Below, in pieces: positions 5,597 through 37,140 of a DNA stretch of 64,000 nucleotides. How positions within the stretch are numbered: the first letter of the stretch is position 1; every line of letters begins with the position of its first letter. The DNA comes from Escherichia coli (GTDB lineage Bacteria > Pseudomonadota > Gammaproteobacteria > Enterobacterales > Enterobacteriaceae). The stretch is from NCBI RefSeq assembly GCF_013315695.1, contig NZ_CP054353.1; one strand, 5' to 3'. Made by a program: the position numbers and the translations under genes. The notes beneath the pieces are model-generated. The model did no database searches. It was not told the origin of the DNA and was given only the letters and a program-made list of their open reading frames with translations.

Positions 5597-5697
5597 AAGC
5601 ATTCGTCGTCAAAGGGAGGAATATTCATGATATGCTACCACTTTGGGCCCTGGTGGACCAGAAAAGGGCTTGTCTCTTCTCATCAGGGTAGCTATAG

Positions 5698-6093
<396 letters not shown>

Positions 6094-6134
6094 CACTTTT
6101 CGGTTTACTGTGGTAGAGTAACCGTGAAGACAAA

Positions 6135-6318
6135 ATTTCTCTGAGATGTTCGCAAGCGGGCCAGTCCCCTGAGCCGATATTTCATACCACAAGAATGTGG
6201 CGCTCCGCGGTTGGTGAGCATGCTCGGTCCGTCCGAGAAGCCTTAAAACTGCGACGACACATTCACCTTGAACCAAGGGTTCAAGGGTTACAGCCTGCGG
6301 CGGCATCTCGGAGATTCC
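6135..6318 (+). ncRNA. ssrS: 6S RNA
   Basis: Sequence atttctctgagatgttcgcaagcgggccagtcccctgagccgatatttcatacc...ggcatctcggagattccc matches recalled 6S RNA; lies between zapA and fau; 3-prime end approximate. Confidence 0.9.
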
Positions 6319-6392
6319 CTTCTTATCTGGCACCAGCCATGACGCAACTACCAGAACTTCCACTGACATTATCCCGACAAGAAATCCGCAAA

Positions 6393-6941: not shown

Positions 6942-6997
6942 GGGCGACACACCTGCATCGCCCTGATTGACATCGTTGATTCTTTAACCTAATTTAG

Positions 6998-7140
6998 TGA
7001 GTAAGGGTAAGGGAGGATGACTCCTCCCCTGAGACTGACTGTTAATAAGCTGGGAAACTTATGAGTAACAGTACAATCAGTATGATGACAAGTCGCATCA
7101 TAACCCTTCTCCTTCAAGCCCTCGCTTCGGTGAGGGCTTT
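6998..7140 (+). ncRNA. sibC: SibC antisense sRNA (antitoxin of ibsC); boundaries approximate
   Basis: Plus-strand region fully antisense to ibsC, ending in hairpin gccctcgcttcggtgagggc plus ttt at 7118-7140; locus between fau and serA. Confidence 0.45.
7042..7101 (-). CDS. ibsC: Type I toxin peptide IbsC (19 aa, hydrophobic)
   Basis: Reverse strand reads ATG ATG CGA CTT GTC ATC ATA CTG ATT GTA CTG TTA CTC ATA AGT TTC CCA GCT TAT TAA = MMRLVIILIVLLLISFPAY. Confidence 0.8.
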   Translation of the reverse strand: MMRLVIILIVLLLISFPAY

Positions 7141-7265
7141 ACCGTTACAGCCCCATGCTGCCCTGCCATCGTAAATCCCCATTAAATAAACACAACGCAT
7201 TGATCTGACTTTGATTTATTTTCTGGAGCAGACTCGCAAAGTAGAATGCGCAATGCGGCAACGGT

Positions 7266-7299
7266 GTGGAGAAGGGATAAAAAAATCGGGCAAGTCAGT
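7266..7299 (-). terminator. Intrinsic terminator of serA
   Basis: Hairpin cgggcaagtcagtgacctgcccg with adjacent A-run on plus strand (U-run on serA transcript) just past serA stop. Confidence 0.5.
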
Positions 7300-7330
7300 G
7301 ACCTGCCCGTTGATTTTCAGAGAAGGGGAT

Positions 7331-8563
7331 TTAGTACAGCAGACGGGCGCGAATGGTACCCGGAATAGCTTTCATTGCCTGCAGCGCTTTTTCGGCAACG
7401 TCTTCGTCGGCTTCAATATCAATAACTACATAACCCATCTGGGCGGAAGTTTGCAGATATTGCGCGGCGATGTTGACGCCCTGCTCGGCAAAAATTTTGT
7501 TGAGCGCAGTTAGCACGCCCGGACGGTTTTCGTGGATGTGCATCAGACGACGCCCACCGTGCAGTGGCAGCGAGACTTCCGGGAAGTTCACCGCAGAGAG
7601 CGTTGAGCCATTGTCAGAATACTTGATCAATTTACCCGCAACTTCCAGGCCGATATTCTCCTGCGCTTCCTGAGTCGAACCGCCAATGTGTGGCGTCAGA
7701 AGGACATTGTCAAATTCACACAGCGGAGAGGTAAATGGATCGCTGTTGGTCGCCGGTTCCGTCGGGAATACGTCGATTGCCGCCCCCGCCAGATGTTTGC
7801 TCGCCAGCGCGTCACACAGTGCCGGAATATCCACCACAGTACCGCGCGAAGCATTAATCAGCAGCGAGCCGGGCTTCATTAGTGAAATCTCTTTCGCACC
7901 CATCATATTTTTGGTGGACGGATTCTCTGGCACATGTAGACTCACCACATCGCTCATATTCAGCAGGTCAGAAAGATGCTGTACCTGAGTGGCGTTGCCC
8001 AGCGGCAGTTTGTTTTCAATATCATAAAAGTAAACATACATTCCCAGCGATTCAGCCAGAATGCCCAATTGAGTACCAATATGACCATAGCCGATGATAC
8101 CCAGCTTTTTGCCGCGCGCTTCAAAAGAACCCGCCGCCAGTTTGTTCCACACGCCACGGTGCGCTTTAGCATTGGCTTCCGGCACGCCGCGCAATAGCAG
8201 CAGCAGTTCGCCAATCACCAGCTCCGCAACAGAGCGCGTATTTGAGAACGGTGCGTTAAATACCGGGATACCGCGTTTTGCCGCCGCATCCAGATCAACC
8301 TGGTTTGTTCCGATACAGAAACAGCCAATAGCGACCAGTTTTTCTGCGGCGTTGATCACGTCTTCAGTCAGATGGGTACGGGATCGCAGGCCGATGAAGT
8401 GGGCATCGCGGATGGATTCTTTTAATTGTTCATCATCCAGCGCGCCTTTGTGAAATTCGATGTTGGTGTAACCCGCTGCACGAAGGCTTTCAAGCGCCTT
8501 TTGGTGCACGCCTTCTACCAGCAGAAACTTAATCTTGTCTTTCTCCAGCGATACCTTTGCCAT
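7331..8563 (-). CDS. serA: D-3-phosphoglycerate dehydrogenase (410 aa)
   Basis: ORF product MAKVSLEKDKIKFLLVEGVHQKALESLRAAGYTNIEFHKG... full length. Confidence 0.97.
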   Translation of the reverse strand: MAKVSLEKDKIKFLLVEGVHQKALESLRAAGYTNIEFHKGALDDEQLKESIRDAHFIGLRSRTHLTEDVINAAEKLVAIGCFCIGTNQVDLDAAAKRGIPVFNAPFSNTRSVAELVIGELLLLLRGVPEANAKAHRGVWNKLAAGSFEARGKKLGIIGYGHIGTQLGILAESLGMYVYFYDIENKLPLGNATQVQHLSDLLNMSDVVSLHVPENPSTKNMMGAKEISLMKPGSLLINASRGTVVDIPALCDALASKHLAGAAIDVFPTEPATNSDPFTSPLCEFDNVLLTPHIGGSTQEAQENIGLEVAGKLIKYSDNGSTLSAVNFPEVSLPLHGGRRLMHIHENRPGVLTALNKIFAEQGVNIAAQYLQTSAQMGYVVIDIEADEDVAEKALQAMKAIPGTIRARLLY

Positions 8564-21952: not shown

Positions 21953-21961
21953 CAAATCGCT
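21953..21961. repeat. 9-bp target-site duplication (caaatcgct), left flank of IS1 copy 1
   Basis: Identical 9-mer at 22730-22738 immediately after the IS1 right end. Confidence 0.9.
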
Positions 21962-22016
21962 GGTGATGCTGCCAACTTACTGATTTAGTGTATGATGGTG
22001 TTTTTGAGGTGCTCCA

Positions 22017-22292
22017 GTGGCTTCTGTTTCTATCAGCTGTCCCTCCTGTTCAGCTACTGACGGGGTGGTGCGTAACGGCAAAAGCACCGCCGGACATCAG
22101 CGCTATCTCTGCTCTCACTGCCGTAAAACATGGCAACTGCAGTTCACTTACACCGCTTCTCAACCCGGTACGCACCAGAAAATCATTGATATGGCCATGA
22201 ATGGCGTTGGATGCCGGGCAACAGCCCGCATTATGGGCGTTGGCCTCAACACGATTTTACGTCACTTAAAAAACTCAGGCCGCAGTCGGTAA
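22017..22292 (+). CDS. insA: IS1 InsA (91 aa)
   Basis: GTG start; [43 protein letters not shown]... Confidence 0.95.
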
Positions 22293-22714
22293 CCTCGCGC
22301 ATACAGCCGGGCAGTGACGTCATCGTCTGCGCGGAAATGGACGAACAGTGGGGCTATGTCGGGGCTAAATCGCGCCAGCGCTGGCTGTTTTACGCGTATG
22401 ACAGGCTCCGGAAGACGGTTGTTGCGCACGTATTCGGTGAACGCACTATGGCGACGCTGGGGCGTCTTATGAGCCTGCTGTCACCCTTTGACGTGGTGAT
22501 ATGGATGACGGATGGCTGGCCGCTGTATGAATCCCGCCTGAAGGGAAAGCTGCACGTAATCAGCAAGCGATATACGCAGCGAATTGAGCGGCATAACCTG
22601 AATCTGAGGCAGCACCTGGCACGGCTGGGACGGAAGTCGCTGTCGTTCTCAAAATCGGTGGAGCTGCATGACAAAGTCATCGGGCATTATCTGAACATAA
22701 AACACTATCAATAA
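22211..22714 (+). CDS. insB: IS1 InsB reading frame (167 aa; expressed as InsAB fusion by -1 frameshift)
   Basis: Product ...[50 protein letters not shown]... Confidence 0.9.
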
Positions 22715-22729
22715 GTTGGAGTCATTACC

Positions 22730-22738
22730 CAAATCGCT
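22730..22738. repeat. 9-bp target-site duplication (caaatcgct), right flank of IS1 copy 1
   Basis: Matches 21953-21961. Confidence 0.9.
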
Positions 22739-22975
22739 GATAGCGCAAAGTAAGGCAATCATAATGTGGTACTGACGACGAATGCCCTGATTCATCACAA
22801 AAGCATTTTGTGGACCGAGCGGTAGGATCATAGCTGCGCCAAGCGCAAGACCTTGAAAGTAATAAGAAAACACGTTGGATATTCCGAATTAAGTATCTGA
22901 TGCAGAGACTATATCGCGGGATTGTTATTAGCGGAAATTGATAATATTAATTGGCAATCAGAAAAACTAATAAGA

Positions 22976-26569: not shown

Positions 26570-27589
26570 TTACCTGAAAGCAACAGTAGCCATAGCTAAC
26601 GTCGTGTCGAGCATTCGGTTAGCAAAGCCCCATTCGTTATCGCACCAGACCAACGTTTTGATCAGGTGTGCGCCACTGACCCGGGTTTGGGTGCCATCGA
26701 CAATGGCACTGTGCGGATCGTGGTTAAAATCTACAGAGACCAACGGCAATTCCGTATAGTCAACTATACCATGAAATGCACCTTGTGCTGCTTTTTGCAG
26801 CAACAGGTTGACTTCATTGGCTTTTACAGGTTTCTTCACCGTCACGCTTAAATCGATTGCCGTCACATTTATGGTTGGCACACGTACCGCAATCGCTTCA
26901 AAGCGATCGTTAAATTGCGGAAAAAATCGTGTGATACCGGCGGCCAGTTTAGTATCGACCGGAATGATCGACTGGCTGGCTGCCCGGGTGCGACGCAGGT
27001 CAGGATGGTATGCATCAATAACCTGTTGATCGTGCATGGCGGAGTGAATTGTGGTCACAGTGCCAGACTCAATACCGTACGCATCATCTAACAATTTGAT
27101 GACGGGAATTATGCAATTCGTGGTACAGGAAGCGTTAGAAACGATGCGGTGTTCCGCACGAAGTTGATCCTGATTGACGCCGTAAACAACGGTCGCGTCG
27201 AGATCGTTACTGCCAGGATGTGAAAAGAGCACTTTTTTGGCCCCGGCGGCAATATGCGCTTCGCCATGCTCGCGGGAGCCATATACGCCGGTGCAGTCGA
27301 GGACTACATCAACGCCAAGTTCACGCCAGGGGAGCGATTGTAGTGAACGTTCATGCAATACACGGATGGCGTCATCACCAACAAAAAGTTGATCGCGTTC
27401 CTGTCGTACTTCCCATGCAAAACGGCCATGGCTGGTGTCATATTTCAACAAATGCGCCATGCCCGCAGCATCCGCCAGTTCGTTGATTGCCACCACGGTA
27501 ATTTCCGCCCGGCGTCCGGATTCATACAAAGCACGAACCACATTACGCCCGATGCGACCGAAGCCATTTATCGCTACGCGTACGGTCAT
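26570..27589 (-). CDS. epd: D-erythrose-4-phosphate dehydrogenase (339 aa)
   Basis: Internal start [43 protein letters not shown]... Confidence 0.95.
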
Positions 27590-27816
27590 AGATCTCCTGC
27601 AAGGTTTTCCCTGAGCAAATTTGCCAGACAGAGTAATCCAGCAAATCGTCCGGGGAAACCTTACCTGTCGCAAACTGCGACTGATTGGTTAATTGTCGAA
27701 CATTTAATCGACTGAAACGCTTCAGCTAGGATAAGCGAAACGTGGAATAAAAGGAATGATTGTCCAGTCAAAGAAGACAATTATCTGACTTACGTCACGT
27801 TTTCAGCCCCGCCCCT

Positions 27817-27832
27817 GTGGAATTTATTCCAC
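27817..27832. promoter_or_regulatory. Near-perfect 16-bp palindrome gtggaatttattccac (candidate operator) in the epd / island intergenic region
   Basis: Inverted repeat read directly; a related half-site cgtggaataaaa occurs about 75 bp upstream. Confidence 0.3.
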
Positions 27833-27960
27833 TTTGCAGAATCACGAATAAGCGTAGCAAAATCTTTTCGTTGTGCCGTCACAAACCCTGACTTATATCA
27901 GAATATGACTGATGCAGCGTCGATATTATCCGCAATACGTCCGAGTTTCGGAGTACTCCA

Positions 27961-28392
27961 ATGATGACATTGCCCTACCCATATTCTTCCTCCGCACGTT
28001 TTTACGCGCTGCGCCTGCTCCCCGGGCAGGAAGTTCTCTCCCAATTACGCGCCTTCGCGCAGCAACAACAACTTCACGCCGCGTGGATTGCAGGTTGTAC
28101 CGGCAGTCTGACTGACGTCGCCTTACACTATGCCGGGCAAGAAAACACGACCCTACTAAGCGGTAAGTTCGAAGTCATCGCATTGAACGGCACGCTGGAA
28201 CAGAGTGGTGAACATCTTCATCTCTGCGTTTCCGATCCACACGGCACGATGCTTGGCGGTCATATGATGCCCGGCTGTACCGTGCGGACCACGCTTGAAC
28301 TGGTGATCGGCTGCCTTGAGGAACTGGCGTTTAGCCGCCAGCCTTGCGCGCTTTCTGGTTACGACGAGTTGCATATTTCCCCCGTTAACTAA
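27961..28392 (+). CDS. Small DUF296 / PCC-domain-like protein (143 aa), first gene of accessory operon
   Basis: Product MMTLPYPYSSSARFYALRLLPGQEVL...HLHLCVSDPHGTMLGGHMMPGCTV...; RBS ggag 7 nt upstream; family assignment from recalled features only. Confidence 0.6.
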   Translation: MMTLPYPYSSSARFYALRLLPGQEVLSQLRAFAQQQQLHAAWIAGCTGSLTDVALHYAGQENTTLLSGKFEVIALNGTLEQSGEHLHLCVSDPHGTMLGGHMMPGCTVRTTLELVIGCLEELAFSRQPCALSGYDELHISPVN

Positions 28393-28414
28393 CTATTTTC
28401 AGAGAGGTTTTCTT

Positions 28415-28993
28415 ATGGCGCGTCGCCACTTTTCCAGTCAGGCGCTGGTGTTGATCGTTATATCTATCGCCATCAATATGATCGGCGGGCAACTGGCCAG
28501 CATGGTCAAATTACCTATATTTCTCGACTCCGTCGGCACACTTATTAGCGCAGTACTGCTTGGTCCGGTGATCGGGATGCTGACCGGCTTACTGACCAAT
28601 TTACTCTGGGGATTGCTGACCGACCCGATCGCCGCCGCATTTGCGCCCGTCGCGATGGTCATCGGCCTGGTCACCGGTTGGCTGGCGCGAGCGGGTTGGT
28701 TACGCACCCTGCCAAAAGTCGTTGTTAGCGGCGTGATTATTACGCTTGCGGTAACGGTCGTCGCTGTACCGCTGCGTACTGCGCTGTTCGGCGGTGTCAC
28801 CGGTAGCGGAGCCGATTTGTTCGTTGCCTGGATGCACTCTATGGGGCAAAACCTGGTGGAGTCGGTGGCGATTACGGTGATAGGCGCGAACCTGGTCGAT
28901 AAAATTCTCACGGCGGTGATTGTCTGGCTTTTACTGCGCCAGTTGCCGATTCGCACCACACGACATTTCCCGGCAATGGCTGCCGTGCGCTAA
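28415..28993 (+). CDS. ECF-type transporter substrate-capture (S) component, small multi-helix membrane protein (192 aa)
   Basis: Highly hydrophobic product MARRHFSSQALVLIVISIAINMIGGQLASMVKLPIFLDSVGTLISAVLLGP...; stop directly abuts the T-component start. Confidence 0.6.
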   Translation: MARRHFSSQALVLIVISIAINMIGGQLASMVKLPIFLDSVGTLISAVLLGPVIGMLTGLLTNLLWGLLTDPIAAAFAPVAMVIGLVTGWLARAGWLRTLPKVVVSGVIITLAVTVVAVPLRTALFGGVTGSGADLFVAWMHSMGQNLVESVAITVIGANLVDKILTAVIVWLLLRQLPIRTTRHFPAMAAVR

Positions 28994-29701
28994 ATGCATC
29001 CGTTTACATCCTTAACGCTGTGGACGCTGGCGGCCTGCACCACGCTTATCCTGCCCACACAGACAATACTGCCAGTCTATAGCGCGGCGACCTTTTTCTG
29101 CCTTATTGCGCTGAAGGCCACGCGGCGGCGGGCAAAATATGTTGTCTGGCTGATGTTCTCGCTGGGGGCTGGACTGTGGCTGGTACACGGTGGCTGGCTG
29201 ACAGAATGGCTAAGCGGCACGCCACGCTCGCCAGAACGGTGGACGCATGCTATTACGCTCTGGTTGCGGATTCTGGCGATTGTTTCAACCTCGCAGTTGT
29301 GGATGCAATTCGTCCCCGTGCAACGTTTTATCCGCGCTTTGTTTGCTTCTCGCCTGCCGCCGGGCGTCGCTTATCTGTTCGCCGGGCCGTTGTTGGTCGT
29401 TGAGCAGTTAAAACGGCAATTAGCGATTATTCATGAAGCGCAGCGCGCCCGCGGCGTACCGCTGGATGAGGGCTGGTATCAGCGTTTACGTGCGATGCCC
29501 GCGCTAATTATTCCGCTAACACACAATGCGCTAAACGATCTGGCTATCCGTGGTGCGGCGTTGGACATGCGGGCATTTCGGATCCACAACCGGCGCACTA
29601 CGTTATGGGCACCGCCTGACAGTAACCTGGAAAAAGTGGCACGTTACGCCATGATCTTGCTGATGCTGGCAGAATTCGGAGCGTGGATATGGTTACGTTA
29701 G
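28994..29701 (+). CDS. ECF transporter transmembrane (T) component, EcfT/CbiQ-like (235 aa)
   Basis: Membrane protein with Arg-containing coupling motifs (EAQRARGV, AIRGAALDMRAF); start codon immediately follows the upstream TAA. Confidence 0.65.
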   Translation: MHPFTSLTLWTLAACTTLILPTQTILPVYSAATFFCLIALKATRRRAKYVVWLMFSLGAGLWLVHGGWLTEWLSGTPRSPERWTHAITLWLRILAIVSTSQLWMQFVPVQRFIRALFASRLPPGVAYLFAGPLLVVEQLKRQLAIIHEAQRARGVPLDEGWYQRLRAMPALIIPLTHNALNDLAIRGAALDMRAFRIHNRRTTLWAPPDSNLEKVARYAMILLMLAEFGAWIWLR

Positions 29702-30366
29702 AACAGTTTAGCTATTGCCCGACACACTCAACGCATCCTCCGTTCTGTTATGACTTTCACTATGTCAAACCGGGGATAGTCGCCATCTTTGGTGACAACG
29801 GCAGTGGCAAAAGTACGCTGGCGCAACTGATGGCAGGCTGGTATCCGGACTTTCTGCCAGGAGAGATAACCGGCACGGGGACGCTTCTCGGTACGCCCAT
29901 TGGGCATATCCCGCTTAATGAACAATCCGCCACCATCCAGCTCGTTCAGCAATCGCCCTATTTGCAGCTCTCCGGCTGTACCTTTAGCGTGGAAGAAGAA
30001 GTTGCCTTTGGGCCAGAAAATCTGTGTCTTGCTGAAGAGGAGATTATGGCGCGGATTGATGCCGCCCTGACTCTGACCGAGTGCCAGCCGTTGCGCCATC
30101 GTCACCCGGCAACACTCTCCGGTGGAGAGACACAGCGTGTGGTCATCGCCTGCGCCATCGCGATGCAGCCAAAGCTCTTAATTCTTGATGAAGCCTTTAG
30201 CCGCCTGACGCCGCAGGCCTGCGAAATGCTGTTGCAGCGCTTACAACACTGGGCGCTTGAACGTGGTTCGCTGATTATTCTTTTTGAACGTCATCGTACA
30301 CCTTTCCTGAACTACTGCCAGCAAGCGTGGCAATTGCAAAACGGAGCGCTCCAGCCACTATGTTAA
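29683..30366 (+). CDS. ABC ATPase, EcfA-like (227 aa)
   Basis: Walker A GDNGSGKST, signature LSGGETQRV, Walker B LLILDEA. Confidence 0.85.
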   Translation: MDMVTLEQFSYCPTHSTHPPFCYDFHYVKPGIVAIFGDNGSGKSTLAQLMAGWYPDFLPGEITGTGTLLGTPIGHIPLNEQSATIQLVQQSPYLQLSGCTFSVEEEVAFGPENLCLAEEEIMARIDAALTLTECQPLRHRHPATLSGGETQRVVIACAIAMQPKLLILDEAFSRLTPQACEMLLQRLQHWALERGSLIILFERHRTPFLNYCQQAWQLQNGALQPLC

Positions 30367-31037
30367 CGTTAAATCAGATAACTTATCGCTGGCCTGACGC
30401 GGCAACGGATTGTCTTTGCGACATTTCTCTGCAACTCAAACAAGGTGAATGGTTGGCGCTGACCGGCGACAATGGCGCGGGAAAATCGACGCTGTTACGA
30501 GTAATGGCAGGTCTTCTTACGCCCACAGCCGGTACGGTTATGCTGCAACAACAGGCGATGAAAAACCTGAAAAACCGCCAGCGCGCGGCAAAGATTGGCG
30601 TACTGTTTCAGGAAGCGGAAAACCAGCTTTTTCACAGCACCGTCGCTGACGAGATCGCATTTGGTTTGAAACTGCAAAAATGCCCGGCGGATGAAATCAC
30701 TCAACGTACCAATGCTGCCCTGCAATGCTGTCAGTTAGCAGACACTGCCAGCGCGCATCCGCTGGATCTGCATAGTGCGCAGCGACGGATGGTCGCCGTC
30801 GCCTGCCTGGAAGCACTCTCTCCGCCGCTATTGCTGCTGGACGAGCCGAGTCGGGATTTTGACGAAAATTGGATGAGCGTGTTTGAAAGTTGGCTGGAAA
30901 AGTGCCGCCAGCGAGGCACGAGCGTCGTAGCAATCAGTCATGACGCCGCATTTACCCGGCGTCATTTCTCTCGTGTGGTGCGACTGGAAGATGGTGTAAT
31001 CAGGAACGTTAATCCATCAGACGATATTCACCCGTAG
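30360..31037 (+). CDS. Second ABC ATPase, EcfA-prime-like, with degenerate signature motif (225 aa)
   Basis: Walker A GDNGAGKST, Walker B LLLLDEP, H-loop SHD; LSGGQ replaced by LHSAQ; start overlaps upstream stop as ATGTTAA. Confidence 0.8.
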   Translation: MLTLNQITYRWPDAATDCLCDISLQLKQGEWLALTGDNGAGKSTLLRVMAGLLTPTAGTVMLQQQAMKNLKNRQRAAKIGVLFQEAENQLFHSTVADEIAFGLKLQKCPADEITQRTNAALQCCQLADTASAHPLDLHSAQRRMVAVACLEALSPPLLLLDEPSRDFDENWMSVFESWLEKCRQRGTSVVAISHDAAFTRRHFSRVVRLEDGVIRNVNPSDDIHP

Positions 31038-31722
31038 CGGTCATCATTAAGGTCAAATTTGCAGGCAGACTCTCTTCCAGCACCCGGCGAACATTCGGCC
31101 CGTCGGTACGGTCATAAAAGGCTTCTGCGTCTGCCAGCGATAACCCTCCCGCCAGCTTGCGCCCCACCAGACGCTCCCGCAACGCAGATGCGGGAGCTTT
31201 GATAAAGATCGAGAAATCACAAAATTGCGCAAGCTGGCGCCACTTCTCGTCGTCCAGCAACAACCAGTTTCCTTCGACGATGACGAGTGGTGCGGTAACG
31301 TGCAACGCATCTTCAACAGGATCATGCTTTTGTCGATCGTACTGCGGCCACGTACAATCCCCTTCCACCACCTGGCGCAGATTTTCCGCCAGTTTCGCAA
31401 CGTCAAATGTCTCTGGTGCGCCTTTGAAGGGGCGCAATTGATGCGCGTCCAGCCAGCTATTGTAATGGTGAAAACCATCCATCGGGAGCGTCTGAATAGC
31501 GGGCAGCTCCGGGTCTTGTTGCGCGAGATATTCCCAGAAGGTGGTTAGGGTAGATTTACCCGTCCCCGGCGGAGCGCAAAGAAAAACCACCGTACGCCGC
31601 TGCGGATTTACCGTCTGTAAGGCCGCCAGCATACGCAGCAACGGTTTATGCACGCGTTCTATCTCTTCATCATGGTACTGTGCCTGTATCTTCAGCCCAT
31701 TCACCGTTAATTCAATTTTCAC
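31009..31722 (-). CDS. yggC: P-loop nucleoside/nucleotide kinase family protein YggC (237 aa)
   Basis: Product with P-loop CAPPGTGKSTL; position between epd and yggD. Confidence 0.9.
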   Translation of the reverse strand: MKIELTVNGLKIQAQYHDEEIERVHKPLLRMLAALQTVNPQRRTVVFLCAPPGTGKSTLTTFWEYLAQQDPELPAIQTLPMDGFHHYNSWLDAHQLRPFKGAPETFDVAKLAENLRQVVEGDCTWPQYDRQKHDPVEDALHVTAPLVIVEGNWLLLDDEKWRQLAQFCDFSIFIKAPASALRERLVGRKLAGGLSLADAEAFYDRTDGPNVRRVLEESLPANLTLMMTATGEYRLMD

Positions 31723-32228
31723 GGCGTTAATTCCTTTAAGGTGGTCGTTACTGCCAGCGTCAGCGCCGTTTTGACCATCCCGCTAAAACGCGCCTCTGAC
31801 CAGACGGCGAAATCGGCGAACTTCATCGCTTTCAACGCGTCATAGAGCGTCGCATTGCGGGTTATGCTATTGACGTTGCTGATAAAATCCCAGGTCATAT
31901 CATCAGCAAATCCGGGCGTTTCATCCTGTTCGTTCAGGTAATGCCAGAACTGGGAAAAATGCGTGATATCGGCGTACAGCCATTTATCCATTTTCCCCAG
32001 CGCATAAATCAAACGCAGTGCAACATCAATATCGTCAAGCGGGCCGCTTTGGGCGAGTAACGGCTTCACTGCATATTCGACGATCTCTTCATCGTTATCG
32101 ACAAACAGCGACGGCAGAAACTGGCGTATCCCCTGGAGCAAAATAGAATGCGCAGTATTCATAAATGAAAATAAATTGTCCTGTGCATCCAGTTGCTCAA
32201 GCACATCATCTTCTGTCAGCGTCGCCAT
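31719..32228 (-). CDS. yggD: MtlR/FumE-family protein YggD (169 aa)
   Basis: ORF product MATLTEDDVLEQLDAQDNLFSFMNTAHSILLQGIRQF... Confidence 0.9.
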   Translation of the reverse strand: MATLTEDDVLEQLDAQDNLFSFMNTAHSILLQGIRQFLPSLFVDNDEEIVEYAVKPLLAQSGPLDDIDVALRLIYALGKMDKWLYADITHFSQFWHYLNEQDETPGFADDMTWDFISNVNSITRNATLYDALKAMKFADFAVWSEARFSGMVKTALTLAVTTTLKELTP

Positions 32229-32249
32229 TGGTCTTCCGATAGATCACCA

Positions 32250-33215
32250 TCAATGCAGGGAGTCTATTATATTACACGTTTGGTCCGCGCCGCCGATCAG
32301 TAATGTCTGCGTCCGCACCCCATTCGCCGTCTGTTGGATACCGTTCACCAACTCGCCGCCCGTCACGCCCGTAGCGCTAAAGAGGATATCGTTCCCCCTC
32401 ACCAGTTCATCGAGCGAGTACACACGGTTAACGTCAACGCCCATTGCCTTACAACGCTTGCGCTCCTGCTCTGCAATCTGCCGATTTTCCGTGTAATCCC
32501 CTTTAGCCTGACAAAAGTCAATCAGCTGGGCCTGCATATCCCCGCCTAATGCTTTAACGGCACAGGCAGAAATCACGCCTTCTGGCGCACCGCCGATGGT
32601 GTACATCACATCGTAAGGATTATCCTGCCAGCAGGTCAGCACGCTGGCGGCGACATCGCCATCCGGCAGAGCGAAAACCTTCACGCCCAGCTGTGTTGCT
32701 TCTTCAATCGCGGCACTCAGGCGCGGTTTATCCAGCGTAACCATGCGCAGCTTGTCCAGCGGTTTGCCTAACGCTTTCGCCACGTTGCGCAGGTTGTCCA
32801 CCAGGGGCAAAGACAGATCAATCGCGCCCGCCGCCAGCCGATTAACAACCAGTTTTTTCATATACATATCGGGAGCGTGTAGCAGGCTGCCTCGTGGGGC
32901 GAAGGCCATGACTGCCAGCGCATTGCTCTGTCCCATCGCCACCATCCGCGTACCTTCAATGGGATCAACCGCGATATCGACTTCTGGCCCATCGCCTTTG
33001 CCCACCTCTTCGCCAATCCACAGCATCGGCGCATGGTCAATCTCTCCCTCGCCGATAACCACTCGCCCACGAAAAGCGACGTCGTTTAATGCCTGGCGCA
33101 TCGCGGTGACCGCCAGGCCATCAATTTTATTTTTGTCGCCACATCCGATTTGCGGCCAGGCAGCCAACGCTGCCTGTTCCGTAACGCGAAATAATGGCCA
33201 CGCCAGGGACATCAT
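32250..33215 (-). CDS. yggF: Fructose-1,6-bisphosphatase class II, GlpX paralogue (321 aa)
   Basis: ORF product MMSLAWPLFRVTEQAALAAWPQIGCGDKNKIDGLAVTAMRQAL... Confidence 0.9.
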   Translation of the reverse strand: MMSLAWPLFRVTEQAALAAWPQIGCGDKNKIDGLAVTAMRQALNDVAFRGRVVIGEGEIDHAPMLWIGEEVGKGDGPEVDIAVDPIEGTRMVAMGQSNALAVMAFAPRGSLLHAPDMYMKKLVVNRLAAGAIDLSLPLVDNLRNVAKALGKPLDKLRMVTLDKPRLSAAIEEATQLGVKVFALPDGDVAASVLTCWQDNPYDVMYTIGGAPEGVISACAVKALGGDMQAQLIDFCQAKGDYTENRQIAEQERKRCKAMGVDVNRVYSLDELVRGNDILFSATGVTGGELVNGIQQTANGVRTQTLLIGGADQTCNIIDSLH

Positions 33216-34489
33216 TGCGCGGCCTCCCCGATATCAACGCCAAATTGCGCCAGCAGATATTTCTCGGCCTGCTCATTCCAGATGCCGTGCGTTTCCTCAA
33301 CCAGCCGCGCCAACTCTTTAAACAGCGGATCGGTTTTGCCTTTTTCGGCAAAATCGGCAATGGCAGTGAGCGGCATGGTCACGCCGTTATAAATGAGTTT
33401 TTTACCGCCTGGGATATCCGGCAGATTGAGCACGGTTTCTGGCACCGCATCAAGGCCACCAATATGGGTCACCATAAACGACGGCTGTAACTGTCCCGTG
33501 GCGCTAAGGGTAATCGCCTCTTTCATGTCGTCCGTTGAACCGCCGGATGTACCGACGACGTGCGTGCTGTTGTAATGGACGTTGTAGAAATTAAACGGCA
33601 CTTTGAAGTTTTTATCCGTCGGCCCGGCAAAGAAGTTCAGGCAGCCATCTTCCGCCAGTAATTCGTCAGCCATCTCAACGACAGCAGGCATCGCCGCATA
33701 AACAAAAATGTCATCGAACCCGGCATCTCCTGTCAGCGCCCGCAGCATCTGTACCGGATCGCTCATCCCTTTGGTATTCACATACACCAGCTCAATGCCT
33801 TTACTGGCCGCCAGTTCCACCGGCAGCAGCTTCTCTACCTGCGCCAGGCGTTTGTCGTCGATATCGACCACCACCACCCGCGACGGTTGTATGCCGCCGT
33901 TAATGGCGTAATCGATAGCGCCAATGCCCATTGGGCCAGCACACGCCAGCAGTGCAATATTGCCGCCAGGTTTGACGCCCATGCGATGCTCATAAACATA
34001 TTGCGTGGTGTGATAATTGGCATGATAAGCGCCAATAATGCAGCACATAGGCTCTGCCAGCGACGCCGCAGCAAAATAAGAGCCGTGATAGGGTAATACG
34101 CAGCTCAGGTTAATGGCGATCTCGGGAATAATCATATAGGTGGCGTTACCGCCAAAATATTCGTAGCTGTATCCCGCAGAATACCCGCTTGGTAGCCCCA
34201 TCGCCGGTTGCAATACAAAACGTTGGCCTTTTTTATATTTGTCGGTGAGATTTTTCCCCACTTCAACAATAATCCCGGCACATTCATGCCCGGTAATGAC
34301 CGGATGATTTTCTAAATCGTCGGGCACCCGTTTATGTTCGCTACCGAGTAACGCCGCTTTCCAGGTCGATAAACACACACTGTCAGAAATTACACTCACC
34401 AGCAGTTCATTATCGGTAATTTCTGGCAGTTCAAATTCGCGCAGACGGACATCCCGCTTGCCATAAATAGCAGCAACTTTGGTTTTCAT
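33212..34489 (-). CDS. yggP: Zn-dependent polyol/sugar-phosphate dehydrogenase YggP (425 aa)
   Basis: MDR-family product MKTKVAAIYGKRDVRLREFELPEITDNELLVSVISDSVCLSTWK... Confidence 0.9.
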   Translation of the reverse strand: MKTKVAAIYGKRDVRLREFELPEITDNELLVSVISDSVCLSTWKAALLGSEHKRVPDDLENHPVITGHECAGIIVEVGKNLTDKYKKGQRFVLQPAMGLPSGYSAGYSYEYFGGNATYMIIPEIAINLSCVLPYHGSYFAAASLAEPMCCIIGAYHANYHTTQYVYEHRMGVKPGGNIALLACAGPMGIGAIDYAINGGIQPSRVVVVDIDDKRLAQVEKLLPVELAASKGIELVYVNTKGMSDPVQMLRALTGDAGFDDIFVYAAMPAVVEMADELLAEDGCLNFFAGPTDKNFKVPFNFYNVHYNSTHVVGTSGGSTDDMKEAITLSATGQLQPSFMVTHIGGLDAVPETVLNLPDIPGGKKLIYNGVTMPLTAIADFAEKGKTDPLFKELARLVEETHGIWNEQAEKYLLAQFGVDIGEAAQ

Positions 34490-34503
34490 TTTTACCTCTG
34501 TAA

Positions 34504-35892
34504 TCAGTGTTTATGTTCGGCGGTTAATTGATTAAATAAAGTGTCGAGTTTTGGATCGCCAATATAGTTATTAATCAATATCAGTGATTTATCCGTCACA
34601 CGTTTCACGCGCCCTTCCAGACTGGCATGAGTAACGACGATATCCGCATCCGCAGGCACGTTTTCTATCGCGTAATGTTTTACTTCAATTGGCAGCCCCG
34701 CTTTTTCCAGACGTTTACGGAAGGTGGTTGCGCCCATCGCGCTGGAGCCCATCCCCGCATCGCAAACAAAGGCGATACGCTTAACCCGGCTTAACGAGAA
34801 TGCACCCTCTTGTTTCATCGCCTTAACCGCATTGGCTGACTGAGCAAACTCATCTTCGTTCTCCGTTTCCACCGTTTTTTCCATCTTCAGTATCAGCGAA
34901 GTGATAGCAAAGGACACCAGGGTACCTACCGTAACACCAGCAATTGTCGCCAGGAATGAGCCTTTCGGCGTCAGCGCCAGGTAAGCAAAGATAGACCCCG
35001 GACTTGGGCCAGCCACCAGACCACCGTCCAGTAAGTTAAACATCCAGGTGCCAGACATACCGCCCGCAATCATGGCAATAATGGTCAGCGGCTTCATCAG
35101 CACATATGGGAAATACAGTTCGTGGATCCCACCGAGGAAGTGAATAATCATCGCACCAGGTGCAGAGCGCTTACTCATCCCTTTACCAAACAGAGTGAAT
35201 GCCAGCAACAGTCCTAAGCCAGGCCCTGGATTGGATGCCACCATAAAGAAGATGGATTTGCCGTTAACTGATGCCTGTTGCATTCCCAGCGGATAATAGA
35301 CGCCCTGATCGATCGCATTATTAAGGAAAAGCACTTTCGCCGGTTCATTGATGACTGACAGCAGAGGCAGATAACCCGCATGTACCAGCGCCTCAATACA
35401 CTCTTTGACGAAAGTATTGGCAATTAACACCGCCGGGCCGATCACTTCAAAACCCAGCAGACAAAGGAGCATCCCCGCGATACCTAATGAGAAGTTATTG
35501 ATAACCATCTCAAAACCGGCAGGTATGCGTTTTTCCAGTGCCTTATCGACATATTTTATGACCAGCCCACCTAACGGTCCCATAATCATTGAACCAAGGA
35601 ACATCGGGATTTCTGCGCCGACGATTACACCAATTGACCCTATTCCGCCCATGACTGCGCCGCGTTTACCGCCGACTAAATGGCCACCGGTAGAACCAAT
35701 CATCACGGGCAATAAATAGGTAATCATCGGGCCGACAATTTTGGCGAAATGTTCGTTAGGCAGCCAACCGGTGGGAATAAATAACGCTGTAATAAAACCC
35801 CAGGCAATAAAAGCACCAATATTGGGGATGACCATTGCAGTCAAAAAGCCCCCAAAAGCCTGGACCTTTGCACGAGCAGACTTGTTTTCCAT
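34504..35892 (-). CDS. cmtA: PTS mannitol-family EIICB component (462 aa)
   Basis: ORF product MENKSARAKVQAFGGFLTAMVIPNIGAFIAWGFITALFIPTGW... Confidence 0.95.
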   Translation of the reverse strand: MENKSARAKVQAFGGFLTAMVIPNIGAFIAWGFITALFIPTGWLPNEHFAKIVGPMITYLLPVMIGSTGGHLVGGKRGAVMGGIGSIGVIVGAEIPMFLGSMIMGPLGGLVIKYVDKALEKRIPAGFEMVINNFSLGIAGMLLCLLGFEVIGPAVLIANTFVKECIEALVHAGYLPLLSVINEPAKVLFLNNAIDQGVYYPLGMQQASVNGKSIFFMVASNPGPGLGLLLAFTLFGKGMSKRSAPGAMIIHFLGGIHELYFPYVLMKPLTIIAMIAGGMSGTWMFNLLDGGLVAGPSPGSIFAYLALTPKGSFLATIAGVTVGTLVSFAITSLILKMEKTVETENEDEFAQSANAVKAMKQEGAFSLSRVKRIAFVCDAGMGSSAMGATTFRKRLEKAGLPIEVKHYAIENVPADADIVVTHASLEGRVKRVTDKSLILINNYIGDPKLDTLFNQLTAEHKH

Positions 35893-36243
35893 AATATTAT
35901 CCTGTAGAGGAGAGAGTAATTATCCGCGGCTGATAATGTCCGCTAATTGTTTTTCTGATGATGCTGTTAAGAGTTGTTCGAGTATTTCTTCTTCGCACAG
36001 TAATTCACTTAACGCCTGAATAGCGCCAATGTGCGAATCGGCATCGGCAGCAGAGAGTCCGATGAGTAATTTAATTGGTTCGTCATTCCCCTGAAAATAA
36101 ACACCTTGTTCAAGTAATGTCAAAGACATCCCGGTTTTAAGCGCCCCACATTCCGGTCGCGCATGAGGCATTGCCACGCCTGGTGCGAGAATATAATAAG
36201 GGCCATTGTTAATGGTGGAATCTTTAATTGCCTGAATGTAATT

Positions 36244-36252
36244 CTCGCTGAT
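36244..36252. repeat. 9-bp target-site duplication (ctcgctgat), left flank of IS1 copy 2
   Basis: Identical 9-mer at 37021-37029. Confidence 0.9.
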
Positions 36253-36307
36253 GGTGATGCTGCCAACTTACTGATTTAGTGTATGATGGTGTTTTTGAGG
36301 TGCTCCA

Positions 36308-36583
36308 GTGGCTTCTGTTTCTATCAGCTGTCCCTCCTGTTCAGCTACTGACGGGGTGGTGCGTAACGGCAAAAGCACCGCCGGACATCAGCGCTATCTC
36401 TGCTCTCACTGCCGTAAAACATGGCAACTGCAGTTCACTTACACCGCTTCTCAACCCGGTACGCACCAGAAAATCATTGATATGGCCATGAATGGCGTTG
36501 GATGCCGGGCAACAGCCCGCATTATGGGCGTTGGCCTCAACACGATTTTACGTCACTTAAAAAACTCAGGCCGCAGTCGGTAA
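36308..36583 (+). CDS. insA: IS1 InsA (91 aa)
   Basis: Translation identical to the 22017-22292 product. Confidence 0.95.
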
Positions 36584-37005
36584 CCTCGCGCATACAGCCG
36601 GGCAGTGACGTCATCGTCTGCGCGGAAATGGACGAACAGTGGGGCTATGTCGGGGCTAAATCGCGCCAGCGCTGGCTGTTTTACGCGTATGACAGGCTCC
36701 GGAAGACGGTTGTTGCGCACGTATTCGGTGAACGCACTATGGCGACGCTGGGGCGTCTTATGAGCCTGCTGTCACCCTTTGACGTGGTGATATGGATGAC
36801 GGATGGCTGGCCGCTGTATGAATCCCGCCTGAAGGGAAAGCTGCACGTAATCAGCAAGCGATATACGCAGCGAATTGAGCGGCATAACCTGAATCTGAGG
36901 CAGCACCTGGCACGGCTGGGACGGAAGTCGCTGTCGTTCTCAAAATCGGTGGAGCTGCATGACAAAGTCATCGGGCATTATCTGAACATAAAACACTATC
37001 AATAA
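36502..37005 (+). CDS. insB: IS1 InsB reading frame (167 aa)
   Basis: Translation identical to the 22211-22714 product. Confidence 0.9.
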
Positions 37006-37020
37006 GTTGGAGTCATTACC

Positions 37021-37029
37021 CTCGCTGAT
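37021..37029. repeat. 9-bp target-site duplication (ctcgctgat), right flank of IS1 copy 2
   Basis: Matches 36244-36252. Confidence 0.9.
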
Positions 37030-37140
37030 ATAGTTTTTATCCAGCAATGATACCATCGAGAAATCGATAGCTTCCTGCCAATCTTTTGCTGAATGTATAA
37101 CTGAGATTGATGATTTTGGAAAATAATCACTAAGCCGCAT

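What the first reader, a model, noticed from the sequence alone, without database searches (positions are those of the whole stretch)
31009..31037. Convergent 29-bp overlap of the ECF operon 3-prime end with yggC
The last ECF ATPase gene (plus strand) ends at 31037, while yggC (minus strand) ends at 31009, so the two coding regions overlap tail to tail with no room for a terminator. This suggests a recent insertion junction or transcriptional interference between the island and the yggPFDC operon.
Basis: seen in the sequence. Interest (0 to 1): 0.3.

Follow-up and report, generated by a model that had tools for sequence, protein, structure and literature searches.

The report
Old tail-to-tail gene overlap at yggC
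The last ATPase gene of a known E. coli accessory cluster (O-island 119: the lmiA regulator plus an ECF-type transporter) does overlap the end of the opposing yggC gene by 29 bases, but the arrangement is old and shared across several genera, so it is not a fresh insertion scar.

Summary
The second ECF ATPase gene (30360-31037, +) and yggC (31009-31722, -) share 29 bp tail to tail. The same ends are annotated by RefSeq, and the junction is present in about 3,319 of 5,426 complete E. coli genomes.

The "recent insertion junction" reading fails on three counts:
- The cluster is the published O-island 119 of EHEC (lmiA/z4267 to z4271).
- It lies at the same epd/yggC locus in E. albertii, E. whittamii, Citrobacter, Atlantibacter, Silvania, Superficieibacter and Phytobacter.
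- Every yggC-adjacent copy overlaps yggC, by 11 to 92 bp.

The boundary between island-carrying and K-12-type genomes is not at the overlap. It lies about 250 bp inside yggC (divergence starts at 31258). The 3' third of yggC is only 63% identical between the two types, with 39% identity at third codon positions.

Where the cluster lies next to other genes, there is no overlap. In Leclercia it abuts tktA, and in Buttiauxella brennerae it sits at another locus. In Leclercia the ATPase is 216 aa and is followed by a terminator-like hairpin, so the nine overlapping codons look dispensable.

No intrinsic terminator is predicted at the overlap. I infer that each operon terminates inside the opposing gene, but this is untested.

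Overall this is an ordinary instance of a known kind of feature.

The parts
31009..31037 (.). 29-bp tail-to-tail overlap. A2 codons 217-225 plus TAG lie on the + strand; YggC's last nine codons plus TAA lie on the - strand.
   Evidence: One SNP within E. coli (31017 T>C) changes both proteins: A2 S>P and YggC M>V.
30360..31037 (+). Second ABC ATPase of the ECF-type module (A2, counterpart of z4271), 225 aa. The ABC core ends at about residue 212-217.
   Evidence: Pfam ABC_tran 2.9e-27. NCBIfam ECF_ATPase_2 6.8e-44 (below cut-off) and an FtsE-length core match 1-212. PGAP annotation.
29689..30366 (+). First ABC ATPase (A1, counterpart of z4270), 225 aa. It overlaps T by 13 bp and A2 by 7 bp.
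28994..29701 (+). ECF T (transmembrane) component, counterpart of z4269
   Evidence: PGAP name. Pfam CbiQ E=9.6e-5, 22.5 bits, below the 25-bit cut-off.
28415..28993 (+). ECF S (substrate-binding) component, counterpart of z4268; substrate unknown
   Evidence: Pfam ECF_trnsprt 32.1 bits against a 30.7 cut-off. NCBIfam CD3073-family S component 6.2e-39, below cut-off. Homologues at 79-98% identity occur across Enterobacteriaceae.
27961..28392 (+). lmiA (z4267 counterpart): PPC/DUF296 DNA-binding regulator, first gene of the operon
   Evidence: Pfam PCC 3.3e-27; PMC7667037
27789..27807 (+). Published PhoP footprint motif of the lmiA promoter (CTTACGTCACGTTTTCAGC), exact match. From the paper's numbering the transcription start would be near 27871.
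   Evidence: PMC7667037
31009..31722 (-). yggC, a nucleoside/nucleotide kinase family protein of 237 aa. It is the last gene of the cmtBA-yggP-glpX(yggF)-fumE(yggD)-yggC gene string.
   Evidence: NCBIfam NF006742, 522.5 bits against a 402 cut-off, covering 1-237
31009..31258 (-). Haplotype-specific 3' third of yggC. It travels with the island and is 63% identical in nucleotides to the K-12 allele (39% at third codon positions, 67% in amino acids).
   Evidence: The same stretch is 97% identical to E. albertii and 91% to E. whittamii.
31259..31368 (.). Interval containing the right-hand recombination breakpoint between the island-carrying and K-12-type haplotypes. The two have no mismatch here.
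   Evidence: mismatch list; sliding window
27760..27833 (.). Left-hand boundary zone of the dimorphic segment. Similarity to K-12 decays here and ends at the shared TTTATTCCA(C/G) motif (27823-27832).
30940..30965 (-). Candidate hairpin in the yggC-direction RNA (ATGACGCCG-GGTAAATG-CGGCGTCAT). It lies 44-69 nt downstream of the yggC stop, inside A2 codons HDAAFTRRH.
   Evidence: 84% of cells are paired across 17 taxa, with a C:G to U:A compensatory change. The G.U pairs are valid only on the - strand. The stability falls in the lowest 0.8-2.4% of synonymous recodings. This is suggestive only.
30831..30928 (-). C-rich, G-poor stretch of the yggC-direction RNA (C/G 2.15-2.33, at or above the 99th percentile of the window). 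It is a candidate Rho loading region.
   Evidence: The link to Rho is inferred from the established preference of Rho for untranslated C-rich RNA.

Best explanation
This is an old, inherited and tolerated convergent overlap between two independent operons. It is not a fresh junction.

The + strand operon is O-island 119: lmiA, then the ECF S and T components, then two short ABC ATPases. Published work shows it is driven by a PhoP-activated promoter. The - strand gene string (cmtBA-yggP-glpX-fumE-yggC) ends in yggC.

No spacer separates them. The ATPase frame runs past its ABC core (which ends at about residue 216) into the antisense of yggC, until the first in-frame stop. In Escherichia that stop is TAG, nine codons in. 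In Citrobacter and Atlantibacter it lies five codons further on. YggC keeps its normal length and its conserved GEYR end, so the cost falls on a variable and apparently dispensable ATPase tail.

The overlap arose in an ancestor shared by several enterobacterial genera. It could have formed when the cluster landed next to yggC, or by later stop-codon drift and small deletions. It has been kept since, while the stop positions wandered (11-92 bp).

In Escherichia the cluster, together with the last 250 bp of yggC, segregates as one of two very old haplotypes. The K-12 type lacks the cluster and carries a deeply diverged yggC 3' end followed by a hairpin.

Inferred, not shown: because there is no intrinsic terminator, each operon's transcript ends inside the opposing gene, probably by Rho acting on the untranslated C-rich antisense RNA. 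The yggC-direction RNA may also be capped by the hairpin at 30940-30965. The two mRNAs are therefore complementary at their 3' ends whenever both operons are on.
For: Shown:
- The overlap and gene identities.
- The junction is present in 3,318-3,319 of 5,426 E. coli genomes, and the K-12-type junction in 2,093.
- The identity with OI-119, including an exact match to the PhoP footprint.
- The cluster sits at the same epd/yggC locus, with overlaps of 29 bp (Escherichia), 44 (Citrobacter freundii complex, Atlantibacter), 26 (Silvania), 68 (C. koseri), 41 (Superficieibacter), 92 (UBA5654) and 11 (Phytobacter).
- Protein divergence of the cluster tracks the flanking genes. Against Citrobacter, A2 is 70-72% and YggC 76-78%. 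Against E. albertii, the cluster is 94-98% and the flanks 94-99%.
- Two cryptic Escherichia lineages carry independent internal deletions that fuse lmiA's first codons to the last ~85 codons of A2, with the overlap still in place.
- The haplotype breakpoint lies inside yggC.
- Away from yggC there is no overlap. In Leclercia A2 is 216 aa and is followed by a 44-bp spacer with a GC hairpin and a T run before tktA. In B. brennerae there is a 7-bp gap.
- A2 tails are variable, while YggC ends are conserved with or without the cluster.
- No terminator-like site is predicted and folding is not unusual.

Supporting the inferred termination:
- A C/G ratio of 2.15-2.33 downstream of the yggC stop, and 1.45-1.63 downstream of the A2 stop.
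- Hairpin covariation and the synonymous-recoding test.
Against: - No transcript data were examined, so the termination model and any RNA-RNA complementarity in vivo are inference.
- The hairpin evidence is modest. The protein sequence itself predisposes to a hairpin (null mean about -10 kcal/mol). It rests on essentially one compensatory event. It lacks a U tract, and it partly persists in Leclercia, where yggC is absent.
- The direction of evolution is not resolved. The cluster could have been inserted into an island-free ancestor, or lost from an island-carrying one. The K-12-type yggC end is no more than 65% identical to every sampled genus, so its source is unknown.
- Dispensability of A2 residues 217-225 rests on one natural 216-aa variant whose function is untested.
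- Overlap lengths in other taxa come from my own extension of ORFs to the first stop, not from curated annotation.
Confidence: 0.75

Rival explanations
1. Recent insertion junction. The island inserted recently next to yggC, and the overlap marks the scar.
For: The cluster is absent from K-12 and from about 39% of E. coli. It is listed as an O-island, and the literature calls it horizontally acquired. In B. brennerae the cluster sits at another locus, so it has moved at least once.
Against: The overlap is conserved in at least seven genera with co-diverged sequences. The island/no-island homology breakpoint lies at 31259-31368, inside yggC, and not at the overlap. No mobility gene is annotated between epd and yggC. 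The two yggC 3' ends differ to saturation at third codon positions, at 39% identity.
Confidence: 0.03
2. Ancient insertion junction. The overlap was created when the cluster landed beside yggC in an island-free ancestor, replacing the hairpin that follows yggC in island-free genomes. It has been inherited since. This is a variant of the best explanation that differs only in how the overlap arose.
For: Island-free Escherichia, C. braakii, C. amalonaticus and Raoultella share a long hairpin (TTATTCCAG...CTGGAATAA) directly after the yggC stop. Island-carrying genomes keep only its epd-side arm, at 27823-27832. Buttiauxella loci that have yggC lack the cluster. A deletion is unlikely to recreate a hairpin.
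Against: Phytobacter has only an 11-bp overlap, caused by a 6-codon extension of yggC. Its A2 tail resembles the free-standing B. brennerae tail. That pattern fits gradual sliding of the two ends rather than a single event. The ancestral state cannot be polarised with the taxa sampled here.
Confidence: 0.3
3. Selected regulatory device. The overlap is kept because convergent transcription or antisense pairing makes the PhoP/low-Mg-induced lmiA-ECF operon and the cmt/ygg sugar-phosphate operon mutually exclusive. The yggC 3'-end hairpin would be deliberately embedded in the A2 coding sequence.
For: Every yggC-adjacent copy overlaps, whereas copies next to other genes have a spacer. The hairpin shows strand-specific G.U pairs, one compensatory change, and sits in the low tail of the synonymous-recoding null. 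There is a precedent for antisense control at a convergent 3' overlap in E. coli, mscL/arfA (PMC10070815).
Against: Overlap length and sequence are not conserved (11-92 bp). The one SNP in the E. coli overlap changes both proteins without apparent constraint. The cluster and the yggC operon occur independently of each other (K-12, Leclercia, B. brennerae). Shared descent alone explains why all yggC-adjacent copies overlap. No expression data are available.
Confidence: 0.15
4. Artefact. A sequencing error, or a miscalled stop or start, creates an apparent overlap.
For: None, beyond the general frequency of such errors. The ORF listing start (GTG, 30327) differs from the PGAP start (ATG, 30360), but that concerns the 5' end only.
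Against: Both stops are the same in thousands of independent complete genomes and in E. albertii and E. whittamii. Both proteins match their family models to within a few residues of their ends.
Confidence: 0.01

Closest known systems
O-island 119 (OI-119) of EHEC O157:H7 EDL933: z4267 (lmiA) to z4271 (PMC7667037, PMC8565820)
   Same: The five-gene content and order are the same: a DUF296/PPC regulator, two membrane proteins and two ABC ATPases. The published PhoP footprint is matched exactly at 27789-27807. O157:H7 genomes carry the same junction at 95-97% identity, with the same annotated 29-bp overlap.
   Different: The literature treats it as a horizontally acquired 3.1-3.3 kb island and does not mention the overlap with yggC. 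Here the cluster is found in about 61% of complete E. coli genomes and, in the same position, in several other genera. The dimorphic segment also includes the last 250 bp of yggC, making it about 3.4 kb (27833-31258).
Convergent (tail-to-tail) overlapping gene pairs in bacteria, e.g. the 75 such pairs counted in the E. coli reference genome (PMC4161906)
   Same: Two real genes on opposite strands share their 3' ends. The origin is best explained by movement of stop codons, which is the mechanism that paper proposes for convergent overlaps.
   Different: At 29 bp it is longer than the other convergent pairs in this 64-kb region, and it joins the ends of two multi-gene operons. Its history can be followed across genera, with stop positions shifting between 11 and 92 bp.
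mscL/arfA convergent pair of E. coli (PMC10070815)
   Same: Both are tail-to-tail arrangements in Enterobacteriaceae in which one gene's 3' region is complementary to the other gene's 3' coding sequence. The arrangement is enriched or conserved across genomes.
   Different: In mscL/arfA, antisense regulation was shown experimentally, and the overlap involves a 3' UTR. Here the coding sequences themselves overlap and no regulation has been tested.
Bidirectional intrinsic terminators between convergent genes
   Same: The same cluster in Leclercia has what looks like one, between A2 and tktA: AGGGCCGC-TTAC-GCGACCCT followed by TTTATTTGTT.
   Different: In the window there is no intergenic DNA and no terminator-like hairpin with a T run at or near the overlap.

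Membership tests
Convergent overlapping gene pair | Two protein-coding genes on opposite strands whose 3' coding ends share nucleotides | tested here: met
   Stops at 31035-31037 (+) and 31009-31011 (-). PGAP gives the same ends.
Convergent overlapping gene pair | Both partners are genuine genes, supported by family matches and conservation, not spurious ORFs | tested here: met
   YggC matches NF006742 at 522.5 bits (cut-off 402). A2 matches ABC_tran at 2.9e-27. Orthologues of both occur in many genera.
O-island 119 (lmiA-ECF cluster) | Five genes: a DUF296/PPC regulator, two membrane proteins and two ABC ATPases | tested here: met
   compared with the description in PMC7667037
O-island 119 (lmiA-ECF cluster) | PhoP-bound motif CTTACGTCACGTTTTCAGC upstream of lmiA | tested here: met
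   Exact single match at 27789-27807, with 0 matches expected by chance
O-island 119 (lmiA-ECF cluster) | LmiA activates ler/LEE under low magnesium | not testable with these tools
   Experimental property reported for O157:H7 (PMC7667037). Whether this strain carries LEE was not examined.
ECF (energy-coupling factor) transporter, dedicated S-T-A-A' operon | S component of the ECF_trnsprt family | tested here: met
   PF12822 at 32.1 bits against a 30.7 cut-off. The CD3073-family model scores 133 bits, below its equivalog cut-off of 180.
ECF (energy-coupling factor) transporter, dedicated S-T-A-A' operon | T component of the CbiQ/EcfT family | tested here: inconclusive
   PF02361 at E=9.6e-5 and 22.5 bits, below the 25-bit gathering score. 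PGAP names it EcfT.
ECF (energy-coupling factor) transporter, dedicated S-T-A-A' operon | Two EcfA-type ABC ATPases | tested here: inconclusive
   Both match ABC_tran, and ECF_ATPase models are their best NCBIfam hits. However, scores are far below the equivalog cut-offs (150 against 330; 120 against 315). Both are 225 aa, whereas the models are 269-279 positions long, so they lack the usual C-terminal extension.
Recently inserted genomic island (junction at the overlap) | The homology break between island-carrying and island-free genomes coincides with the proposed junction | tested here: not met
   The break lies at 31259-31368 inside yggC and at about 27760-27833 on the left
Recently inserted genomic island (junction at the overlap) | Restricted distribution, or near-identical copies, in otherwise diverged hosts | tested here: not met
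   Syntenic copies occur in seven or more genera at 65-98% protein identity, in line with the flanking genes
Recently inserted genomic island (junction at the overlap) | Mobility genes or a tRNA target at the borders | tested here: not met
   No integrase, transposase or tRNA is annotated between epd and yggC. Flanking direct repeats were not searched for specifically.
Intrinsic (Rho-independent) terminator between convergent genes | GC-rich hairpin followed by a T run, within or next to the gene ends | tested here: not met
   No site within about 400 nt of the overlap. Folding z-scores are 0.47 and -0.86. No conserved structure lies downstream of the A2 stop.
cis-antisense regulation through overlapping 3' ends (mscL/arfA type) | Transcripts from the two strands are complementary at their 3' ends | tested here: inconclusive
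   At least 29 nt of complementarity is unavoidable if both mRNAs reach their stop codons. This follows from the sequence, but the actual transcript ends were not observed.
cis-antisense regulation through overlapping 3' ends (mscL/arfA type) | Expression of one partner changes the level of the other | not testable with these tools
   Needs expression experiments

The most novel reading that the evidence does not exclude
Three readings remain open and would be new if true:
- The overlap is functional. The 3'-end hairpin of the yggC operon (30940-30965) and a Rho entry site are encoded inside the ATPase gene. PhoP-driven transcription of lmiA-ECF under low magnesium would then collide or pair with the cmt/ygg operon, making the two mutually exclusive.
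- The island/no-island state, with its breakpoint inside yggC and saturated divergence of the yggC 3' end, is a balanced polymorphism older than the Escherichia species.
- Because lmiA controls LEE virulence genes, a sugar-phosphate operon would then feed into virulence regulation through a shared 3' end.
Probability: 0.1. Interest if true: 0.5.

Novelty: new member of a known kind. Interest (0 to 1): 0.2.

Why it matters
On its own it matters little. Convergent overlaps are common in E. coli, and this one is already visible in RefSeq annotation. Three by-products are useful.

1. OI-119 is described in the EHEC literature as a horizontally acquired island. It is in fact a widespread cluster found in the same position in several enterobacterial genera. 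It is carried by about 61% of complete E. coli genomes, and cryptic Escherichia lineages show in-place deletion scars.

2. The real boundary of the dimorphism lies inside yggC. Island-carrying and K-12-type strains therefore make YggC proteins that differ in a third of the residues in their C-terminal 87 (67% identity). This matters to anyone deleting 'OI-119' or comparing yggC function between strains.

3. Clean deletions of z4271, or of the whole island, necessarily touch the yggC stop region and its likely 3' UTR. That is a practical caveat for published and future mutants.

Tried and rejected
- **Rfam scan** of 27000-36500 at E<=1 found nothing, so there is no riboswitch or known RNA at the operon or the overlap.
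- **Consensus terminator and promoter scan.** Counts equal the shuffled expectation and no site lies near the overlap.
- **Single-sequence folding** of both strands around the overlap was not unusual. The RNAalifold consensus downstream of the A2 stop was weak (-8.45 kcal/mol) with negligible covariation, and its conserved stems are explained by the YggC TDGPNV motif.
- **A functional link between YggC and ECF transport.** Alkalibacterium yggC homologues lie 3-4 kb downstream of ecfA1-A2-T. I judged this to be the general housekeeping ECF module of Firmicutes and did not pursue it. Within Enterobacteriaceae the two units occur independently (K-12, Leclercia, B. brennerae).
- **A truncated A2.** I considered that insertion had truncated the short A2, but A1 is equally short (225 aa), so shortness is a family trait.
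- **A recent deletion origin for the K-12 type.** I rejected this because K-12 carries no A2 or lmiA remnant and its yggC 3' end is saturated with differences. Genuine deletion derivatives (L003, L007) do carry remnants.
- **Literature searches** for yggC with ECF, and for yggC/yggD/yggF, returned nothing relevant to the overlap.
- **Not attempted:** structure prediction, a metagenome scan and further protein searches. None would bear on the question.
Full report
**1. The observation.** The + strand ORF that PGAP annotates as 30360-31037 ends with TAG at 31035-31037. The - strand ORF 31009-31722 ends with TAA, the reverse complement of 31009-31011. The two share 29 bp. A RefSeq genome identical over 27500-32500 carries the same two CDS ends, as do O157:H7 TB21-1 and JE86-ST02.

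A 96-bp probe over the overlap matches 3,319 of 5,426 complete E. coli genomes at 90% identity or more, with both CDSs annotated under the match in all 39 full-length sampled rows. The only SNP inside the overlap among the strains I compared (31017 T>C) changes both proteins and leaves both stops intact. A sequencing error or read-through artefact is therefore excluded.

The overlap covers ATPase codons 217-225 (VNPSDDIHP) and YggC's last nine codons.

**2. What the genes are.** The + strand carries five tightly packed genes:
- a PPC/DUF296 DNA-binding protein (27961-28392);
- an ECF S component (28415-28993);
- an ECF T component (28994-29701);
- two 225-aa ABC ATPases (29689-30366 and 30360-31037).

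The - strand gene is yggC, a full-length match to NCBIfam NF006742. It is the last gene of cmtB-cmtA-yggP-glpX(yggF)-fumE(yggD)-yggC.

The literature identifies the + strand cluster as O-island 119 of EHEC O157:H7, genes z4267 to z4271. Its first gene, lmiA, is a PhoP-activated, low-magnesium-induced activator of ler. Deleting the other four genes had no virulence phenotype (PMC7667037; PMC8565820). The published PhoP footprint occurs exactly once in the window, at 27789-27807. Neither paper mentions the overlap with yggC.

**3. It is not a recent junction.** I scanned one genome per species for YggC relatives and mapped the neighbouring genes.

- The cluster sits between epd and yggC in E. 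albertii, E. whittamii, five members of the Citrobacter freundii complex, C. werkmanii, C. koseri, Silvania, two Superficieibacter, Phytobacter and an unnamed enterobacterial MAG. A separate context look-up added Atlantibacter.
- In every one of these the ATPase and yggC overlap tail to tail:

| Taxon | Overlap (bp) |
|---|---|
| Escherichia | 29 |
| C. freundii complex, Atlantibacter | 44 |
| Silvania | 26 |
| C. koseri | 68 |
| Superficieibacter | 41 |
| MAG (UBA5654) | 92 |
| Phytobacter | 11 |

- Protein identities of the cluster follow those of the flanking genes. Against Citrobacter, A2 is 70-72%, YggC 76-78% and GlpX 84-87%. Against E. albertii, everything is 94-99%. This pattern indicates co-divergence, not recent transfer.
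- Two cryptic Escherichia lineages (L003, L007) lack the cluster but keep the lmiA promoter and first codons, fused at two different points to the last ~85 codons of the ATPase. That remnant still overlaps yggC. These are independent in-place deletions of a resident cluster.

**4. Where the real boundary lies.** K-12 has a yggC of the same length (237 aa) and a 284-bp spacer to epd. The two yggC alleles compare as follows:

| yggC codons | Nucleotide identity | Third-position identity | Amino-acid identity |
|---|---|---|---|
| 1-150 | 96.4% | 93% | 97% |
| 151-237 | 63.2% | 39% | 67% |

There is no mismatch between 31259 and 31368. Divergence begins at 31258 and continues to the stop. On the other side, similarity decays between about 27760 and 27833. 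The dimorphic segment is therefore about 27833-31258 and includes the overlap and the last 250 bp of yggC.

The window's yggC 3' third is 97% identical to E. albertii and 91% to E. whittamii. The K-12-type 3' third is 89% identical to one other Escherichia species-level genome (L008) and no more than 65% identical to everything else sampled.

Within E. coli the dimorphism is clean. 3,318 genomes carry the window-type junction and 2,093 carry the K-12 type. Both haplotypes are thus old within the genus. The source of the K-12-type end is unknown.

**5. What happens when yggC is not the neighbour.** The S component is widespread in Enterobacteriaceae.

- In Leclercia the cluster lies between epd and tktA, and the whole cmt/ygg string is absent. 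There the ATPase is 216 aa (ending VVRLEAGRLSP). It is followed by a 44-bp spacer containing a GC hairpin and a T run.
- In Buttiauxella brennerae the cluster sits at an unrelated locus. The ATPase is 227 aa with a canonical-looking tail, and a 7-bp gap separates it from a convergent acetyltransferase gene.
- The ATPase tails of the yggC-adjacent copies are variable after the VVRL motif. YggC ends are of normal length and keep the G-x-Y-R motif whether or not the cluster is present.
- The Leclercia protein ends exactly at the residue equivalent to the last non-overlapping residue in E. coli (N216).

I conclude that the overlap consumes only a dispensable ATPase tail and costs YggC nothing. That explains why it is tolerated. 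Phytobacter has a free-standing-type A2 tail and an 11-bp overlap caused by a six-codon extension of yggC. This suggests the two ends slid into each other gradually.

An origin at the time of an ancient insertion is also possible. Island-free Escherichia, Citrobacter and Raoultella share a long hairpin directly after the yggC stop, and island-carrying genomes keep only the epd-side arm of it.

**6. Transcription (inference).** No intrinsic terminator is predicted within about 400 nt of the overlap. Local folding is unremarkable, and there is no conserved structure downstream of the ATPase stop. Each transcript must therefore continue untranslated into the antisense of the other gene.

- The yggC-direction RNA has a 9-10 bp GC hairpin at 30940-30965, followed by a stretch with C/G 2.15-2.33 at 30831-30928. 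That ratio is at or above the 99th percentile for the window.
- The ECF-direction RNA has C/G 1.45-1.63 at 31078-31195.

Rho is known to terminate untranslated, C-rich, poorly structured RNA, so Rho-dependent termination inside the opposing gene is the most economical model.

The hairpin itself has modest support:
- It is conserved in Escherichia, Citrobacter, C. koseri and Atlantibacter, with a C:G to U:A double change.
- Its G.U pairs are valid only on the - strand.
- 84% of cells are paired, and the covariation score was reached by 1 of 500 shuffles.
- Its stability lies in the lowest 0.8-2.4% of synonymous recodings on the - strand, against 1.6-40% on the + strand.

On the other side, the peptide HDAAFTRRH predisposes to a hairpin, there is no U tract, and the evidence amounts to about one evolutionary event. 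I regard it as a candidate 3'-end structure only.

If both operons are active, their mRNAs are complementary over at least 29 nt and probably over 100 nt or more. Interference of the kind shown for mscL/arfA (PMC10070815) is then possible, but it is untested.

In the window strain, an IS1 interrupts the 5' end of cmtB. This may already have removed the native promoter on the yggC side.

**7. Comparison and verdict.** Convergent overlaps are a known and fairly common kind of feature. A published count gives 75 pairs in the E. coli reference genome and attributes them to stop-codon movement (PMC4161906). In this 64-kb region the other convergent pairs are separated by 45-212 bp, apart from one 4-bp overlap.

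The present case is a somewhat long, well-conserved member of that kind, at the end of a published island. 'No room for a terminator' is correct, 'recent insertion junction' is not supported, and 'transcriptional interference' remains an untested possibility.

The more informative by-products are these:
- OI-119 is an old cluster that keeps the same position across genera.
- It segregates in Escherichia together with a deeply diverged yggC 3' end.
- Deletions of z4271 or of the whole island inevitably touch yggC's stop and its likely 3' UTR.

Noticed in passing
window 31009-31258 compared with L002 (K-12) 1875-2124: The last 87 codons of yggC differ between island-carrying and K-12-type E. coli to saturation (63% nucleotide identity, 39% at third positions, 67% amino acid). 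The first 150 codons are 96% identical. The K-12-type end has no close relative among the sampled genera (65% or less), except one other Escherichia lineage at 89%.
   Followed up: yes
L002 (K-12) 1825-1871; also L008, L013, L016, L018, L019, just after the yggC stop: Island-free haplotypes in Escherichia, Citrobacter and Raoultella share a long AT-rich hairpin (TTTATTCCAG...CTGGAATAAA, -18 to -30 kcal/mol) immediately downstream of yggC, with no U tract. Island-carrying genomes keep only the epd-side arm (window 27823-27832).
   Followed up: partly
L003 about 5640-6320 and L007 about 5640-6370 (cryptic Escherichia lineages): Two independent internal deletions of the lmiA-ECF cluster fuse the first 7-20 codons of lmiA to the last ~85 codons of the second ATPase. 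In L003 the remnant is decaying, with frameshifts and a 21-bp deletion.
   Followed up: yes
L063 (Leclercia) 6946-7700: The cluster abuts tktA, with the entire cmtBA-yggPFDC string absent. The ATPase is 216 aa and is followed by a terminator-like hairpin (AGGGCCGC-TTAC-GCGACCCT, then TTTATTTGTT).
   Followed up: partly
L064 (Buttiauxella brennerae) 4550-7631: The same five-gene cluster lies at an unrelated locus, between an autotransporter gene and a GNAT acetyltransferase gene. Other Buttiauxella species have yggC next to epd without the cluster. The cluster has therefore relocated at least once.
   Followed up: no
window 27789-27807 compared with L002 about 1790-1808: The published PhoP-binding motif of the lmiA promoter lies in the decaying left flank shared with K-12. 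K-12 has CTCACATCACACTTTTATC at the same place, with five mismatches.
   Followed up: partly
window 21961-22742 and 36248-37030: Two IS1 copies: one interrupts argO and one interrupts the 5' end of cmtB. The closest complete genome (E. coli AF3, NZ_OZ547117) has a third copy between yggP and cmtA that the window lacks. The cmtB insertion may cut the cmt/ygg string off from its native promoter.
   Followed up: partly
window 31629-31672 (yggC codons about 17-32): A small mosaic patch: 11 mismatches to K-12 within 44 bp, inside an otherwise 97-100% identical 5' region. This suggests a short gene-conversion tract.
   Followed up: no
window 29689-31037: Both ATPases are only 225 aa and match the EcfA equivalog models (269-279 positions) far below their cut-offs. 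They lack the usual C-terminal extension of ECF ATPases. The T component also falls below Pfam's CbiQ threshold. This looks like a divergent ECF subtype with an unknown substrate.
   Followed up: no
L054, L056, L057 (Alkalibacterium) about 700-5750: YggC homologues (37-41% identity) lie 3-4 kb downstream of ecfA1-ecfA2-ecfT on the same strand. This is probably the housekeeping ECF module of Firmicutes and a coincidence, but a kinase-transporter link was not excluded.
   Followed up: partly
L004 (contig DXKH01000034 of a 'Citrobacter sp.' MAG): A 4.5-kb contig carrying the cluster and yggC at 95-99% protein identity to E. coli. The same MAG also has a genuine Citrobacter-type yggC locus (L020). 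The contig is likely E. coli contamination in the bin.
   Followed up: no
near window 19.5 kb (L065 19564-19567 in AF3 coordinates): A second convergent overlap, of 4 bp, between a frameshifted acetyl-CoA hydrolase/transferase pseudogene and srsR.
   Followed up: no
hit H20 (NZ_CP180597.1): In at least one E. coli genome epd is annotated next to cmtA, which implies deletion of the cluster together with yggC, fumE, glpX and yggP. About 15 of the 5,426 genomes fit neither main haplotype.
   Followed up: no
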